Positions 10,161-31,100 of a stretch of DNA of 64,000 nucleotides are shown piece by piece. Made by a program: the position numbers. Each line of letters starts with the position of its first letter. Positions within the stretch are counted from its first letter, which is position 1. The stretch is from Okamejei kenojei (Eukaryota), in the NCBI GenBank assembly GCA_035221665.1, contig CM069162.1:16306001-16370000 (forward strand), read 5' to 3'.

Positions 10161-13100
10161 ATAAATAAACAGATAAAATGCAATAGGCTGTTATTTTTCA
10201 GAGCTTGGAGTTTGGTTGTGGTGGGTCCACTCCACTTTAAATTCCATTTGGAATATTTTTGGAGGACCATGAAGCCAAGAAGCAAGAGTTACTCCAGGGA
10301 GTTACTCCAGCTCCAGGGAGTAATTCTGCGTTGGTTTTCAACGGTCGTGGTGAGGCGGCGACCAGACAGCAATGGCGGCCAGATCTCCCGCAATGCAAAG
10401 GGAGGGAGAAAGTGACCGACGCCGACCAGTTGCTGTGGCAGTGCGCTTGTGCAGGGCGGCACATGCGCACAACCACGGTCGATGATGTGCTGGCCCTGGT
10501 TGTGCGCATGTGCAGGGGGAGGATGTGCAGGCCGTGGCAGTGCGCATGCATGTATAAGGAGACCCGAGAGCCGGACACGAATGGCGGGCAGAGATAGAGA
10601 GTGACAGAGAGAGATAGAGAGAGGGCCCGCTCAGAATTAAACAATAGGTGTCCCGGGTACTTGCCAAGCCGGGTAAAATGGCATGGCTTTCAGGTTGCCC
10701 AGTGGGACTGTAGGTTGCCATTGGCACCCGTGCAACCGTTAATTTCGAGCCCAGAACAGTTGTCAATGTCTCACCTTTTCAGTTAGTTAAAACAAAAAAA
10801 TGTGTTTCACTCACTTAAATAGTACGGTTCAGGAGAATGAGATGCGTGGCAGGCTTGTCATTCAATGCCTCAGAGTAGCTTTGCAGCAATATTCTGAGAA
10901 TCAAGAATGCAGTATTTGAAAATTGATAGATCCAAGTAAAGTAATTTTCCAACAAAGTAGTTGAAGAGCTTCCAATAATTACATCTTTGTCATATTTCAA
11001 TGCCATTTCATCATTCTGTGTGGCATGGAAGGAAGGCCTTCAGTCCACAGAGCCTTTGCTGACTAAATCAACTGCTTTCCACCATTCACGCAAAAAAAAA
11101 CTTTCTTTTTTGCGTACGAATTATCAACATCCATCCCCAGAATTCTCCAACCACCCATGTCACTAGGGATAGTTTACAGTAGCCAATATCCCTCACAGTC
11201 AGTATATATTTGGGGTTTTGAACAAAGTGGGAGCATTCACACAGTGACACAGCTACACAGCTTGCAGCGCTATTATACCATGTAGTTTTATGATTTTTAT
11301 TTTGTTAGTTGCTATAGTGCACCTTATATGGTTCTGCAACTATAATGATTGTGTTGTAGTTTAAGGCAATGGATGGATGCAGATATTTTGTCTATAGAAG
11401 AACCAAAGATCTTTGTCAAGGCCCCTGCAATGGGCCCCATAGTTCATGGCATGCAGAGTAATCCTGCCATCACACTGCTAGAGATCCTGTTATTTAATTT
11501 ATTAACTTACTCCTTAAATTCTCCTTGCTCCTCATCTCCCTTCCTACCTGTGACGTTGGTACCAAAATGGACCACAGCCTCCCTCTGTTCACCCTCCCCT
11601 CTCAGAATGTCCTGTGCTCGCTGCCTTAACCTTGGCACCAGGGAGGCAACAGAGCCTCCTGGAGTCTTGCTTGGGATTACATAAATGCCTGTTTGTACCA
11701 CTGACTATGGCTCACCTAGATTGAACCCTACTTGGCTGTTCAGCAGAGCCAGATGTGGTACCACTGTTCTGGTTACTACTACTATTTTCCCCCTCCACAG
11801 TATCTAGAATGGTATCCTTGTTTGAGAGGAAGATAGCCACACGAGAATCCTGCACTACCTGTCTGCCTCTCCTGGTGGTCACCCATCTATCTTCCTGAAC
11901 CTTTGAAGTGACCACCTGCCTATAACTACTGTATATAAACCCTTTCTGCATCCTATAGCTTCTCAGTCTGCCCAATTGCTGCTCCAATCGATCCACTGAT
12001 GGACACACTTCCTGCAGTTAAATGTATTTCATTATGCCAGTACTGCAACCAAGTTTCTACCTCATATGCTGTACAGTGCCATTCATTGCACCTCTCAGAA
12101 TCAACTCTAGGCGGATGGTCAATGTGTGTGTAATGGGAAAGTGTTTGTTATAATGGCTTGTTTGTTATAATGGATAGTTCATTTTACTTAAAGTTAACAG
12201 GTTTAGGGGATGTTAATCTTGGTTGTGTCAAATTTCATATGATTTTATCAGAATATTTTTCTTGAGTAGTGATGATTCCTTTGTCTTTCTGAGCAGAAGA
12301 TTCGAGGAATCTCACAGAACAGGAGTTCCTATTACTGCACAGACAGGATCTTGCAGAGGCCGTCCAAGACGTGCAAGGTTTAGTGGAATCTGTGACAAAC
12401 TGTGATGATATCCCATTGCCAGAGAAAACGGTATTGACACACACAATTTTAAAGAAATATCTTTATGTCTTTCAAATGTGATTGCTTCTCTGACACCCCC
12501 CCCGAGCACTGGTGATGTGGCTCTTGCCTGAGCATTAATTATCTTATTAAGATAATACTTGATCCTTTCCCATTGAACAATGAGGCAGACTCCCCACATT
12601 TTTATGTCACTAGCACAGGGTCTCAGACTGCATTGTTTTTTGTAGAGGTGGTAGTGCATAGATTTAGGAGTCAAAGGGGAAAGTGAGTTATTATTTTAAG
12701 CTATTTTGATTTTATTTAACGTATTTAATTATTTGTGTTTTTAGTTAACATTTAAAATTTTTTAAATGTTTTAATTAAATGTTCTTTTTTTATATCTTGA
12801 TAGTTTTAATTGTCTCTAACAATGATTACACTTGGCAAACCCAGTCTTCCACTTTGCCATTTGCCAGGGACATTTTGTGATGAGGATATCTTCATTGTAT
12901 TACGTGATACACTTGCCATCTAGTCCATGTACCAGGACTTTTGGGGTGAATGTCCAGCGATATAATCCTTCTGCATCTATAAGTGCGTCTATCAGTCCAT
13001 GTAAGTGTAGGTATGGATGGACAGCAGGTAGTGTTCCTGGGTGACCGGACAGTGTTCCAGGGACTGATAGAGTGAGATAGTTTGGATTGGGTTTGCATGT

Positions 13101-28100: not shown

Positions 28101-31100
28101 TGGCAGTGTTCTTGCAGGCCCATGAAGCGTAACGCAGAGGAGGGGCTGACTGCTGTCACCAGACAGTTGCACTCACAGAAAAGCTTGTCCCAATATACAA
28201 CAGACTTGAGAATCATTTAAAAAAATAATCTTAGAGTAATTACAATTATTTTTTCTAAAACAAATAGCATGTAAAAAGCACACACCCATGAACAGAATAT
28301 TTAACCAGCATAGTTGCATTAAACAATAGGCTTTTCTAATGATAAACAATTTCTATCATTCATTTAATGATAGTGCCTATGGCAGGTTTAGTTTGAGTCG
28401 GAGGACGAACTGGATTATCGTAAGCGCCTGATTTATCAGTAGTTGGCCACAATTGTTAGTGGCGAAGCTTCTTGACGAATAAATAACTCTATCATTGTCA
28501 AAGTGGAAGTAGGGTTGTGCAAACTCTTTGTGTGAGATTGCACATTCACTTTCTTAATATTTTAGATGAATGGCTTTGCAACATTAGGTCAGTGACCCTT
28601 CATTGTTGAAAATATTATGAGGTGTAAGTGAGATTTCCTGCATGCATGGATTGTGTGCTTTCAGGGAATGTTCCAGCACCATCACAGATGTAAGTGAAAG
28701 ATCCATCAGCATCAGATGTACTGATTGGTGTGAGCAAAGGTCTCAGCAGCATCACAAGAGTTTCTGACAAAAATAAAATGAAATATTATTTGTACTCAAT
28801 AACCATTTTTCCAATAGAATCTCGTGCATTTTGTAATTTCAGCATTTTACTGGCATTTCCATTAGTTTTGCTAACATTTTCTAATATAAAAGCAAGTGCA
28901 TGTATTTTGTACTTGTTGAATTAAAGTCTCTCTTGCTATCACAGGTGTAGGTTGCATTATGGTAAAAGTCCTTGCATTGTGCAAATAGCATTTCTTGTAT
29001 GTTCTGTTTTGTGATACAGTACCACATCACTGTTGATAAAAGAATGGGATTCTTCCATCTGTTTCAGTCAATTCCTGGGACAGATTCAAGGCCCATAATT
29101 TTTATGTGAAATTAATAGAGAGATGCTTTTACATGTGGTGGGGTAGTCAGACAAGAGTCAGCACAGTGGCACAGCTAGCTGGGAGAGCCGCTGCCTCACA
29201 GCACCTGAGACCCAGATTGGATCTTGGGTGCTGTCTTTGTGGAGTTAGCAAGTTCTCCCTGTGACTGTGGGTTTTCTCTGGGTGCTCTGGTTTCCTCCCA
29301 CATCCCAAAGCAGGTTTGTAGGTTAATTGACCTCTATAAATTGCCCCTAGTGTGTAGGCAATGGATGCAAAAGTGAGATAACAGAGTAGTGTGAACAAAT
29401 GACCAATGAACGGCGTGGACACAGTGGGCTGAAGGGCCTGTTTCCATGCTATATCTTGCAATCCATTAATCATCTAGGAAATAGGGCAGCAAAGGAAACA
29501 AATGGTGAACAATAATGCATTCCCACCACCTTTAGATAAAAAAAAACACCTCAATTAATAGGTGATGTGAATCGATAGAGACCACATAATTGCAATTTCC
29601 ACAACACGCAGTTAACTGTCTGTCACCTTCTGCAAAGTATATTGACGCTAAAAAATAAGAATAGTTTACATAATTTATACTAGAGTTATACAAAAATGCA
29701 GGAGAATTAGTTCAAGGAGCTGAGTAGTTATAGTTTATATTGACCTGACTAATTATTCAGTGCTGTGGCAGGTTGAGTGTATACATTGAGTAGATTTTTG
29801 ATATGCACTAAAAATATATATTTTTAAATTCTCATGAATTATTTGCATGGTTTATATTTCTTCCCACTGTCAGATTTTGAAGAGCTGTTGTTTCAAGGAT
29901 ACTGCTGGTCAGTCACTAGAAAGTATTCTGGGCAAAATTCTAGAAGAACGGCTCGTTCCTGCCCTGGTGTTTTGTAAACTCTTGCATATGATCAGTGAGT
30001 CCCATCCGTCCCTTGAATTGGTAATGAAGACAATGGAACATGCAGGTAACTGTACAAAGAAGGATTTGCGTTTAGATATCTTATGAGCATGGGCACAAGT
30101 AAGATTTATAGTTTTGTCCATAAAACGTTATTTTACACCGACTTGCTTTGTACCTCTACAGGTACCGTAAACAAACAAATTTACTTGCGTTCCAAAGTTA
30201 AGTCATCTTCAGGGATTGTAATGGTTATTTTCCATCTTACAAAGTTGGAGAACTAACTTTGATGCAATTGCTCTAACTTTCACAGATTTCAGATTCCTAG
30301 CCTGTCATTTTGTGAACTTGCTAAAAACGTAATGCCTACTACTACCTACTGTCAATAAAATGATCCCTTTAAGGACCAATTTTGAATCCACACCCACATT
30401 GTGGTTCAAGGCATAGATTGTAAAATTTCTCTGGAGTAAGCTTGTTCACAGCTTATTGATCCACAAAGAATGACACTTGCAGTATTTTGCTCAGCAATAA
30501 TCAGCAATGATTTTTGAATTGCCTCAGTTTGTAACTTTTAAAATATAATTTCAAGAAATATCCCTCGGAAAAGCAGAAGGAAAATAAATTAGTAAGAATT
30601 AGAAATACTTGAATCAGTAGCACATATGAGAGAAATTATGAATACTTCAGGTTGTTGGTTATCATGAAGGTGAAAGCAGTTTTCCTCTCTGCTTATAACT
30701 TTTAAAATCAAACTTCTGTTAGATTAAATAGTAATGTCTATATCTAAATTCAAACCTAGATTTAAGGAGCTAGCTAGTAGTTCCATTTCACCACTAAATG
30801 CAGGGTGAAATAATCATGAACATTTCATAGTCGTAGAGAGTCACAGGGCACAGAAACAGGCCCTTTGGCCCAGCTTGTCCATGCTGACCAAGATGCCCAA
30901 TCTAAACTAATTCCATTTGCTCACGTTTGTCCCATGCCCATATAAACCTTTTCTATCCATGTGCCTGTCCAAGTGTCTTTTAAATCCTTCTCTGTTTTTA
31001 AATGTCTTTGTGCATTGTCTATTCTTCTTCACAAAACTGCAGCCACCCAGGCAGTGAGCTCTGTCGGCCATAGATATGAATTCTGTTCTTCATTGAACAC

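What the first reader, a model, noticed from the sequence alone, without database searches (positions are those of the whole stretch)
12297..30045. Exon architecture records tandem duplication of a symmetric two-exon cassette
Seen: each unit is a 134-140 nt exon (phase 1-0) plus a 172-199 nt exon (phase 0-1), with the internal intron at the homologous position. Cassette lengths are 333, 333, 336 and 309 nt, all multiples of 3 and bounded by phase-1 introns. Established: class 1-1 modules are the typical substrate of exon shuffling. Inference: one domain cassette was inserted between BTB and fingers and quadruplicated, and whole units could be skipped in frame to change valency. This supports the domain boundaries independently of the protein similarity.
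Basis: partly seen in the sequence, partly recalled or inferred. Interest (0 to 1): 0.65.

Follow-up and report, generated by a model that had tools for sequence, protein, structure and literature searches.

The report
Four tandem CARD domains in ZBTB40
The region holds eight exons of a skate ZBTB40 gene that encode four ancient copies of one two-exon CARD (death-fold) domain, built so that whole or hybrid domains can be spliced out without breaking the reading frame.

Summary
On the + strand, eight exons with AG/GT borders (134+199, 140+193, 137+199, 137+172 nt) form four cassettes of 333, 333, 336 and 309 nt. Each has phase-1 outer introns and a phase-0 inner intron at the same alignment column.

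The gene is a skate ZBTB40, not human. The four units are homologous. Each is a CARD-type six-helix bundle. Unit 1 is closest to the SP100/AIRE 'HSR' CARD and to the NOD1 CARD.

All four units were already distinct in the ancestor of jawed vertebrates. Some teleosts and lizards have fewer.

Annotated isoforms of other species lack whole cassettes. More often they lack the out-of-register pair 1b+2a or 3b+4a, which leaves a hybrid CARD.

The only relatives found outside ZBTB40 are tandem CARDs of elasmobranch NLR-like proteins.

The function of the array (multivalent CARD assembly, perhaps at PML bodies) is inferred, not shown. Splicing in this species, the donor gene and the order of duplications remain open. 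I found no paper describing CARDs in ZBTB40.

The parts
6895..7654 (+). First coding exon of ZBTB40 (start codon, BTB domain), 760 nt, ends in phase 1. It is the upstream neighbour of the array.
   Evidence: Pfam BTB 76.2 bits. 93% identity to L. erinacea ZBTB40. tblastn residues 1-252. Donor CAG|gtacaa.
12297..12430 (+). Exon 1a, 134 nt, phase 1-0. Encodes helices 1-2 and the start of helix 3 of CARD unit 1.
   Evidence: Splice sites. tblastn of P0009 residues 254-299 at 96%. Peptide P0001. Model.
13165..13363 (+). Exon 1b, 199 nt, phase 0-1. Encodes the rest of helix 3 to helix 6 of unit 1, plus the linker.
   Evidence: tblastn residues 298-364 at 100%. Weak Pfam HSR match, profile positions 47-98, E 0.034.
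18679..18818 (+). Exon 2a, 140 nt, phase 1-0, CARD unit 2.
19039..19231 (+). Exon 2b, 193 nt, phase 0-1, CARD unit 2.
   Evidence: (97%).
23412..23548 (+). Exon 3a, 137 nt, phase 1-0, CARD unit 3.
   Evidence: (98%).
25587..25785 (+). Exon 3b, 199 nt, phase 0-1, CARD unit 3.
   Evidence: (96%).
27292..27428 (+). Exon 4a, 137 nt, phase 1-0, CARD unit 4.
   Evidence: (94%). Weak Pfam CARD match, E 0.18, profile positions 3-26.
29874..30045 (+). Exon 4b, 172 nt, phase 0-1, CARD unit 4. Shorter than the other b exons because it lacks the C-terminal tail.
   Evidence: (97%).
32007..32429 (+). First zinc-finger exon, 423 nt, also phase 1-1. It is the downstream neighbour of the array.
   Evidence: Acceptor and donor. 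tblastn residues 690-831. This exon is absent from whale-shark isoform X3 and a Pangshura isoform.

Best explanation
Window 12297-30045 carries eight coding exons of a skate ZBTB40 gene. They encode four tandem CARD (death-fold) domains between the BTB domain and the C2H2 zinc-finger array.

Each CARD is written on two exons. A phase-0 intron sits five residues into helix 3. Phase-1 introns sit in the linkers between domains.

The four domains descend from one two-exon CARD cassette that was duplicated in tandem before the last common ancestor of jawed vertebrates. Each has since been kept as its own orthologous unit. Some teleosts and lizards have lost units.

Both intron classes are symmetric. 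So an a+b pair (a whole domain) or a b+a' pair (leaving a hybrid domain) can be left out without a frameshift, and each skip lowers the number of CARDs by one.

Shown here: the exon anatomy, the homology of the units, the CARD fold, the age of the array, and the existence of such isoform models in other species.

Inferred: the array acts as a multivalent homotypic interaction platform, as CARDs of AIRE and SP100 do, which concentrates ZBTB40 in nuclear assemblies. Also inferred: splicing or lineage-specific loss tunes its valency.
For: Anatomy.

Homology of the units.

CARD identity:
- Pfam HSR scored above its gathering score on unit 1 in 3 of 7 full-length orthologues scanned: 31.2, 26.8 and 25.7 bits against 24.9.
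- HSR at E<=0.01 was found in 6 of 16 unit-1 stretches and 5 of 13 four-unit stretches.
- A unit-1 profile hit six distinct NOD1 CARD sequences in the PDB at E 2.2e-4 to 1e-3 over the full domain; the next hit was at 0.2.
- The AlphaFold2 model of the array (pLDDT 80.5) shows four bundles, each with a two-part helix 1.
- The unit-1 model has pLDDT 84.8 and pTM 0.77.
- Its best Foldseek match is the SP100 CARD filament 9tnz_A (probability 0.98, TM 0.57/0.61). By their descriptions, 18 of the first 20 listed rows are CARD or death-domain entries.
- With the four-unit model, the first 7 rows are RIG-I or MDA5 tandem CARDs.
- An exhaustive HMMER search of 1.84 billion proteins found 141 hits at E<=1e-3. 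I looked up 20 long ones by name. Sixteen are ZBTB40 or fragments of it. Four are elasmobranch proteins with 2-3 tandem copies: two have a NACHT domain after the copies (one also Pfam LRR), one scores Pfam CARD 30.3 bits against a cut-off of 23.9, and one has no Pfam match.

Age: in trees of 16 species x 4 units, the copies group by unit and not by species. Units 1, 3 and 4 are starred at 99-100. Units 1 and 4 are also starred when the NLR copies are added.

Skipping: of 118 named ZBTB40 models, 77 have units 1-2-3-4 and 41 differ. Among the 41:
- 4 lack 2a+2b, 6 lack 3a+3b and 3 lack 3a to 4b (whole cassettes).
- 11 lack 1b+2a as one clean gap.
- 6 more lack the same interval with extra or split gaps.
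- 3 lack 3b+4a.
The gap ends map onto the skate exon borders within 0-2 residues.

Function (context only):
- Aire CARD forms filamentous homomultimers that mediate foci (PMC7118133, abstract in the listing).
- ZBTB40 colocalises with PML bodies and ALT-associated PML bodies in U2OS cells (PMC10480536, passages).
Against: No transcript of this species was seen. The exon model rests on splice signals and on a predicted protein of a sister species.

The isoforms are annotation models whose RNA support I could not inspect.

No Foldseek match reached E<=1e-3 (0, 0).

Pfam lists no HSR or CARD match at E<=0.1 for the closest orthologue P0009, nor for stingray, turtle and chinchilla proteins. The window's own exons give only sub-threshold hits.

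One a-exon pair (2a-3a) is not significantly similar on its own.

The order of duplications is unresolved. The {1,2}|{3,4} split has 93/87 support, and the alternatives are not rejected (AU 0.32 and 0.30).

Nothing here shows that these CARDs oligomerise or bind anything.
Confidence: 0.8

Rival explanations
1. The array was not built inside ZBTB40. Instead, a ready-made block of tandem CARDs was captured from an NLR-type innate-immunity gene. Alternatively, ZBTB40 unit 3 was later copied into elasmobranch NLR genes.
For: The only relatives found outside ZBTB40 are elasmobranch proteins with 2-3 tandem copies. In two of them the copies sit in front of a NACHT domain. In the tree they join unit 3 with 99/98 support. 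Phase 1-1 cassettes are movable in principle (established knowledge, recalled).
Against: The 10 NLR-type copies form one group on a very long branch (2.24) and are most alike within each protein (98-99% in Mustelus), so they multiplied on their own. They were found only in elasmobranchs, while the four ZBTB40 units exist in elasmobranchs and bony vertebrates alike. The tree carries a long-branch warning. AU tests do not reject unit-3 monophyly with the NLR copies outside it (0.27), nor their joining unit 4 (0.20). The exon structure of the NLR genes could not be read.
Confidence: 0.1
2. The architecture is real but only a fossil. The four CARDs are always included, and the shorter isoform models are prediction artefacts or splicing noise, so valency is not regulated.
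For: All isoform evidence comes from automatic gene models. No RNA data were available. 77 of 118 models carry all four units. I found no paper on ZBTB40 cassette skipping; 2 papers hold 'ZBTB40' and 'exon skipping', and the one I opened is irrelevant.
Against: The same exact exon pairs are missing in models of distant lineages. 2a+2b is missing in 4 elasmobranch models. 1b+2a is missing in turtles and many mammals. 3b+4a is missing in 3 dolphin models. 3a+3b is missing in turtles, a bird and a sturgeon. Evolution has also changed the unit number, to 1-2 units in several teleosts and 2 in lacertid lizards, which shows that fewer units are tolerated.
Confidence: 0.25
3. The units are a generic alpha-helical repeat that only resembles CARDs by chance.
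For: Foldseek E-values are weak, best 0.13 and 0.37. Small helical bundles match easily. The ESM Atlas scores of 0.78-0.81 are in the range that shuffled proteins reach a third of the time.
Against: Independent sequence methods agree. Pfam HSR scores above its curated cut-off in three species. NOD1 CARD is hit at E 2.2e-4 with nothing else below 0.2. HMMER links the units to a protein that Pfam calls CARD above its cut-off. The structural hit lists are almost purely CARDs.
Confidence: 0.03

Closest known systems
HSR-type CARD of the SP100/SP110/SP140/AIRE family (Pfam PF03172)
   Same: Unit 1 matches the Pfam HSR model nearly end to end, for example whale shark residues 264-354 on model positions 8-98 of 99. 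The best structural match of the unit-1 model is the SP100 CARD filament 9tnz_A. Both are nuclear, DNA- or chromatin-associated proteins. Aire's CARD multimerises into filaments (PMC7118133, abstract in the listing).
   Different: In that family there is one CARD at the N-terminus, followed by SAND, PHD or bromo domains (recalled). Here there are four internal CARDs between a BTB domain and C2H2 fingers. The HMMER search with the ZBTB40 profile listed 141 hits at E<=1e-3. None of the 20 long hits I looked up by name was an SP100-family or AIRE protein; the other 121 were not identified. The relation was therefore seen only through the Pfam profile and the fold.
NOD1 CARD and tandem CARDs of RIG-I/MDA5
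   Same: NOD1 CARD is the only solved protein hit by sequence (E 2.2e-4). RIG-I and MDA5 tandem CARDs are the top structural matches of the four-unit model. Like RIG-I, MDA5 and NOD2, ZBTB40 carries CARDs in tandem.
   Different: Those are cytosolic innate-immune sensors with one or two CARDs. ZBTB40 is a BTB zinc-finger DNA-binding protein with four. The arrangement of the four domains relative to each other is not confidently predicted (pTM 0.46).
Elasmobranch NLR-like proteins with tandem CARDs (P0188 Mustelus, P0247/P0271 Pristis, P0260 Hypanus, P0264 Scyliorhinus)
   Same: They are the closest sequence relatives outside ZBTB40, at E 9.7e-13 to 3.3e-4 against the whole library. They carry 2-3 tandem copies and group with unit 3.
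   Different: In two of them the copies are followed by a NACHT domain, with Pfam LRR as well in P0247, and not by zinc fingers. They were found only in elasmobranchs. Their copies are far more alike within a protein than the ZBTB40 units are.
Class 1-1 exon modules of exon shuffling (Patthy; recalled, no paper read)
   Same: Each cassette is bounded by phase-1 introns and its length is a multiple of three. It was multiplied in tandem.
   Different: The classic modules are mostly single-exon extracellular domains (recalled). Here the module is a nuclear CARD split by an inner phase-0 intron. That gives a second in-frame register (b+a') which is used in annotated isoforms.

Membership tests
ZBTB40 orthologue (BTB zinc-finger family) | N-terminal BTB domain, C-terminal C2H2 finger array, and best similarity to named ZBTB40 proteins | tested here: met
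   BTB scores 76.2 bits. The first coding exon is 93% identical to L. erinacea ZBTB40, and the next hits are ZBTB40 of other elasmobranchs. All exons of P0009, including the finger exons, map onto the window up to 50769.
CARD (death-fold superfamily) | Bundle of six antiparallel helices of about 90 residues | tested here: met
   In AlphaFold2 models, each of the four units shows the bundle (pLDDT 80.5). The unit-1 model has pLDDT 84.8 and pTM 0.77. These are predictions, not solved structures.
CARD (death-fold superfamily) | Helix 1 broken into two parts (a CARD hallmark; recalled) | tested here: met
   Two short helices take the place of helix 1 in all four units: 8-14/16-22, 116-125/127-133, 227-237/239-245 and 338-348/350-356. 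The same is seen at 5-11/13-19 in the unit-1 model.
CARD (death-fold superfamily) | Significant sequence match to curated CARD-type models or to solved CARDs | tested here: met
   Pfam HSR is above its cut-off in 3 of 7 orthologues. NOD1 CARD is hit at E 2.2e-4 with a unit-1 profile. Pfam CARD and CARD_2 reach E<=0.01 in only 1 of 13 four-unit stretches each. The window's own exons, searched singly, stay below threshold.
CARD (death-fold superfamily) | Structural match to solved CARDs | tested here: inconclusive
   The top matches are CARDs with probability up to 0.98 and TM 0.53-0.63. No match has E<=1e-3.
CARD (death-fold superfamily) | Homotypic association or filament formation | not testable with these tools
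   This needs biochemistry. The single complex prediction gave no verdict (see Tried and rejected).
SP100/AIRE protein family | A single N-terminal HSR-CARD followed by a SAND domain, with or without PHD or bromo domains (recalled) | tested here: not met
   The ZBTB40 domains are BTB, four internal CARDs and C2H2 fingers. No SAND, PHD or bromo domain appears in the Pfam scans. The relation is at the level of the domain, not the protein family.
SP100/AIRE protein family | Shared intron position inside the CARD | not tested
   No vertebrate genomic DNA other than the window was available. The ZBTB40 inner intron lies between HSR model positions 42 and 43. My recollection that AIRE exon 1 ends after codon 44 in phase 0 is unverified; a look in PMC13431174 found no such variant names.
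Class 1-1 symmetric exon module | Both flanking introns in phase 1, and a length divisible by three | tested here: met
   for all four cassettes. The first finger exon (423 nt) is also phase 1-1.
Class 1-1 symmetric exon module | The same module is found shuffled into unrelated genes | tested here: inconclusive
   Related tandem CARDs occur in elasmobranch NLR-like proteins. Their exon structure and the direction of transfer are unknown.

The most novel reading that the evidence does not exclude
ZBTB40 is a DNA-bound CARD-array protein. Its four SP100-like CARDs, eight per BTB dimer, co-assemble with or cap the CARD polymers of SP100-family proteins in PML bodies. This would tie telomeric or transposon-derived DNA sites to those bodies.

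The number and make-up of the CARDs would set the threshold for that assembly. That number is set by in-register skipping, by out-of-register skipping that creates hybrid CARDs, and by loss of units in some lineages.

This would explain why ZBTB40 sits at PML bodies and ALT-associated PML bodies, and why its loss raises the number of the latter (PMC10480536, passages).
Probability: 0.15. Interest if true: 0.8.

Novelty: new member of a known kind. Interest (0 to 1): 0.5.

Why it matters
ZBTB40 is usually described as a BTB domain plus zinc fingers; the roughly 440 residues between them are given no role in the paper passages I read.

If that stretch is an ancient, conserved array of four CARDs, ZBTB40 joins AIRE and the SP100 family as a nuclear factor that may work through death-fold polymerisation. 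That gives a concrete, testable handle on its reported links to PML bodies, telomere maintenance and spermatogenesis.

The gene is also a clean case study of how intron phases constrain domain duplication. It shows a domain split by a phase-0 intron being recombined by splicing into hybrid domains.

Tried and rejected
- Complex prediction. The result was 'no answer' (score 0.00, mark 0.32, the alignment was not used). It counts neither for nor against binding.

- ESM Atlas look-alikes of unit 1. The nearest clusters carry CARD, but the scores of 0.78-0.81 make this a lead only.

- DNA-level similarity between the cassettes. There are no exon-to-exon blastn hits at E<=0.01. The two hits found lie in introns and look like shared repeats. 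The duplication has left no DNA trace.

- Order of duplications. The best tree gives {1,2}|{3,4} at 93/87. 1+3 and 1+4 are not rejected (AU 0.32 and 0.30). I left this open.

- Direction of transfer between ZBTB40 unit 3 and the NLR-type CARDs. The AU tests do not decide it.

- AIRE exon borders from a mutation review (PMC13431174, passages). Nothing usable was found.

- Papers opened for a CARD or cassette-splicing mention of ZBTB40, none found: PMC10480536, bioRxiv 10.1101/2024.11.11.622123, PMC11874512 main text, PMC13649554 and PMC11169469.

- Supplements of PMC11874512.

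
Full report
WHAT THE WINDOW IS. The window contains no N. Its + strand carries a multi-exon gene. The first coding exon (6895-7654) holds a BTB domain (Pfam, 76.2 bits). It is 93% identical to ZBTB40 isoform X1 of the little skate Leucoraja erinacea (P0009, 1249 aa). The next-best hits are ZBTB40 of sawfish, stingray, electric ray and sharks. I therefore take the contig for a skate, not human. tblastn of P0009 lays the whole protein on the window from 6895 to 50769.

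Each exon was translated and searched on its own. Anything that needed a whole domain was done with named orthologous proteins from the searches.

THE OBSERVATION. The eight exons are:
- 1a 12297-12430 (134 nt) and 1b 13165-13363 (199 nt)
- 2a 18679-18818 (140 nt) and 2b 19039-19231 (193 nt)
- 3a 23412-23548 (137 nt) and 3b 25587-25785 (199 nt)
- 4a 27292-27428 (137 nt) and 4b 29874-30045 (172 nt)

Each exon is preceded by a pyrimidine tract and AG and followed by GT. The sums are 333, 333, 336 and 309 nt. Counting from the start codon, the a exons run from phase 1 to phase 0 and the b exons from phase 0 to phase 1. P0009 residues 254-690 align to exactly these exons at 80-100% identity. The exon that follows (32007-429, 423 nt, the first zinc fingers) is also phase 1-1.

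ARE THE FOUR UNITS ALIKE BEYOND CHANCE? I compared the window's exon peptides a with a and b with b, scoring Smith-Waterman against 2000 shuffles.
- All 6 b-exon pairs were reached by at most 4 of 2000 shuffles.
- Of the 6 a-exon pairs, 5 were reached by at most 16 of 2000.
- The pair 2a-3a was reached by 444 of 2000 and is not significant alone.
- None of the 16 a-against-b control pairs fell below 37 of 500.

With profiles built from 76 orthologues per unit, all six unit pairs align over 89-91 columns with probabilities of 94.5-98.9% (E 8e-8 to 2e-17).

In the alignment of the four units of P0009, the a/b junction lies in one column. At the DNA level nothing is left. There are no exon-to-exon blastn hits, only two intron hits that look like shared repeats.

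WHAT THE UNIT IS. Several independent lines say CARD.

1. Pfam family scans.
- The HSR model (the N-terminal domain of SP100 and AIRE) scores above its curated cut-off on unit 1 of whale shark, paddlefish and Mustelus ZBTB40. The scores are 31.2, 26.8 and 25.7 bits against 24.9. That is 3 of the 7 full-length proteins scanned. It is not listed for the skate, stingray, turtle or chinchilla proteins.
- HSR is also the only recurrent family in 6 of 16 unit-1 stretches and 5 of 13 four-unit stretches.
- The precomputed column shows HSR for 8 of the 120 listed proteins.
- The window's own exons give only weak hints. Exon 1b matches HSR positions 47-98 at E 0.034. Exon 4a matches CARD positions 3-26 at E 0.18.

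2. Solved structures by sequence. A unit-1 profile finds six distinct NOD1 CARD sequences at E 2.2e-4 to 1e-3 over the whole domain. The next hit is at 0.2.

3. Structure prediction.
- AlphaFold2 on the four-unit region of P0009, with 12 orthologues, gives pLDDT 80.5 and four helical bundles, each with a two-part first helix. Confidence dips at the unit junctions.
- A unit-1 model (sawfish, 16 sequences) gives pLDDT 84.8 and pTM 0.77.

4. Fold search.
- Foldseek places the SP100 CARD filament (9tnz_A) first for the unit-1 model, with probability 0.98, TM 0.57/0.61 and 95 columns. Of the first 20 listed rows, 18 are CARD or death-domain entries.
- For the four-unit model, the first seven rows are RIG-I or MDA5 tandem CARDs.
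- No Foldseek E-value reaches 1e-3 in either search.

5. Exhaustive profile search.
- An HMMER search of 1.84 billion representative proteins with the four-unit profile found only 141 proteins at E<=1e-3.
- I looked up 20 long ones by name. Sixteen are ZBTB40 or pieces of it, from newt, lungfish, gar, teleosts, birds and lizards.
- Four are elasmobranch proteins with two or three tandem copies. Two are 'NLRP3-like' proteins with a NACHT domain, one of them also with Pfam LRR. One is an uncharacterised protein that Pfam calls CARD at 30.3 bits against 23.9. One is a catshark protein that UniRef names 'CARD domain-containing'.
- The remaining hits are mostly short unnamed fragments. Their matched profile ranges coincide with single exons, for example 45-113, 158-222, 270-334 and 380-436.

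WHERE THE INTRONS SIT IN THE FOLD. The inner phase-0 intron lies after model residues 45, 158, 268 and 380. In every unit that is five residues into helix 3 (helices 41-51, 154-164, 264-273 and 376-385). In Pfam HSR coordinates it falls between positions 42 and 43.

The phase-1 introns lie at residues 112, 223 and 335. These are in the loops between bundles, where the 10-residue pLDDT blocks drop to 60-62, 44-60 and 74-78.

AGE AND HISTORY. I built trees from 16 of the 77 four-unit proteins, chosen for taxonomic spread (8 elasmobranchs and 8 bony vertebrates).
- The copies group by unit, not by species. Units 1, 3 and 4 are starred (99-100). Unit 2 is nearly one group. The quadruplication therefore predates the split of cartilaginous and bony vertebrates.
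- The best tree pairs {1,2} against {3,4} at 93/87. The alternatives are not rejected (AU 0.32 and 0.30), so the order of events is open.
- Unit number has changed since. Chanos, gar and Denticeps keep four (unit 2 is degraded in Denticeps). Astyanax has two. Esox, Centroberyx and a goby model have one. Lacertid lizards have two.
- No cyclostome protein was among the named hits. Chimaera was not seen separately.
- The ten NLR-type copies form one long-branched group that joins unit 3 at 99/98. The tree carries a long-branch warning. AU tests leave the placement and the direction of transfer undecided.

SKIPPING. I analysed 118 named ZBTB40 models. Two unnamed ones were left out. Of the 118, 77 carry units 1-2-3-4 and 41 do not. 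I mapped the gaps onto the skate protein.

Whole cassettes missing:
- 4 models lack 2a+2b. All four are elasmobranch: stingray, horn shark, whale shark and epaulette shark.
- 6 lack 3a+3b.
- 3 lack 3a to 4b.

Out-of-register pairs missing:
- 11 lack 1b+2a as one clean gap (turtles and many mammals).
- 6 more lack the same interval with extra or split gaps.
- 3 dolphin models lack 3b+4a.

The other 8 models:
- 1 lacks the first finger exon.
- 4 show no gap of 30 residues or more in the array region.
- 3 show partial gaps.

The gap ends fall on the skate exon borders within 0-2 residues. This also shows that the intron positions are conserved across jawed vertebrates.

The out-of-register skips are bounded by the phase-0 introns. 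They would fuse helices 1-2 and the start of helix 3 of one unit to the rest of the next unit, giving a hybrid CARD.

All of these are automatic gene models. I could not see their RNA support, and no transcript of the window's species was available.

HOW IT MOST LIKELY WORKS. Shown: a conserved array of four CARD folds between a dimerising BTB domain and a DNA-binding finger array, encoded so that the number of CARDs can drop by one or two without a frameshift.

Inferred: the array is a multivalent homotypic interaction platform.
- CARDs are homotypic assembly modules (recalled).
- Aire's CARD forms filamentous multimers that drive its nuclear foci (PMC7118133, abstract seen in the listing).
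- An SP100 CARD filament has been solved (PDB title).
- ZBTB40 has been reported to colocalise with PML bodies and ALT-associated PML bodies, and its loss raises the latter (PMC10480536, passages).

I put about 0.35 on CARD-mediated self- or hetero-assembly being the array's main role. The one complex prediction I could run gave no verdict.

COMPARISON AND NOVELTY. The gene and its exons are annotated in many genomes, and tandem duplication of symmetric cassettes is textbook. What I did not find in print is the CARD nature of the ZBTB40 middle region.
- 'ZBTB40' with 'caspase recruitment': 0 papers.
- 'ZBTB40' with 'HSR': 1 irrelevant paper.
- 'HSR domain' with 'BTB' and 'zinc finger': 0 papers.
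- 'ZBTB40' with 'CARD': 111 papers. I saw the 15 best-ranked in the listing and opened two; none concerns the domain.
- The main text of a 2025 atlas of death-fold proteins does not mention ZBTB40. Its supplements could not be read.

Databases do carry HSR hits for a few fish orthologues. I file the finding as a new member of a known kind.

LIMITS.
- No RNA data were available.
- No vertebrate genomic DNA other than the window was available, so intron positions in other CARD genes were not compared. My recollection about AIRE exon 1 is unverified.
- bioRxiv and PMC supplements were not seen.
- The structures are predictions.

Noticed in passing
P0188 residues 154-485; P0247/P0271; P0260; P0264 (proteins, not in the window): Elasmobranch proteins carry 2-3 tandem CARDs that are the closest relatives of ZBTB40 unit 3. 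In two NLRP3-like ones the copies sit in front of a NACHT domain. In the Mustelus protein the three copies are 98-99% identical to each other. That could be a very recent tandem duplication or an assembly artefact.
   Followed up: partly
P0110 (Anomaloglossus frog ZBTB40 model, 1559 aa): The unit pattern is 1-2-3-4-3-4, that is six CARDs. Either cassettes 3-4 were re-duplicated or the assembly or annotation duplicated them.
   Followed up: no
window 32007-32429: The first zinc-finger exon (423 nt) is also phase 1-1. It is missing from whale-shark isoform X3 and a Pangshura isoform. White shark and Mustelus isoforms lack later finger exons in frame.
   Followed up: partly
Turtle isoform P0031 compared with P0033, mapped to P0009 residues 297/298 and 410/411: There are small in-frame insertions of 7 and 24 residues exactly at the two inner phase-0 introns. 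This suggests alternative splice sites there.
   Followed up: no
window 4760-4996: A 40-nt tandem repeat of 5.9 copies at 85% match lies inside the only GC-rich stretch of the window (4001-6000, GC 0.556), about 2 kb upstream of the start codon. It may be a promoter or 5' UTR region.
   Followed up: no
window 14924-15958 (+): A 344-codon open frame with a reverse-transcriptase domain (RVT_1, E 8.8e-14) lies in the intron between exons 1b and 2a. It is a LINE remnant. Open frames with similar peptide motifs lie at 20856-20996 and 22473-22679; no Pfam family matched the latter at E<=0.001. Long open frames that may also be repeat-derived lie on the minus strand at 52999-53583 and 58809-59607; they were not scanned.
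   Followed up: partly
window 9615-9932 (-): A DDE_3 transposase fragment (E 4.9e-8) lies in the 4.6-kb intron between the BTB exon and exon 1a.
   Followed up: no
window 10117-10156 and 32518-32565: Perfect (TA)20 and (AT)24 microsatellites. The second lies just downstream of the first finger exon.
   Followed up: no
alignment A3: Unit 2 is the best conserved of the four between elasmobranchs and bony vertebrates (mean identity 0.36, against 0.27-0.32 for the others). Yet it is the unit that the elasmobranch isoform models skip.
   Followed up: no
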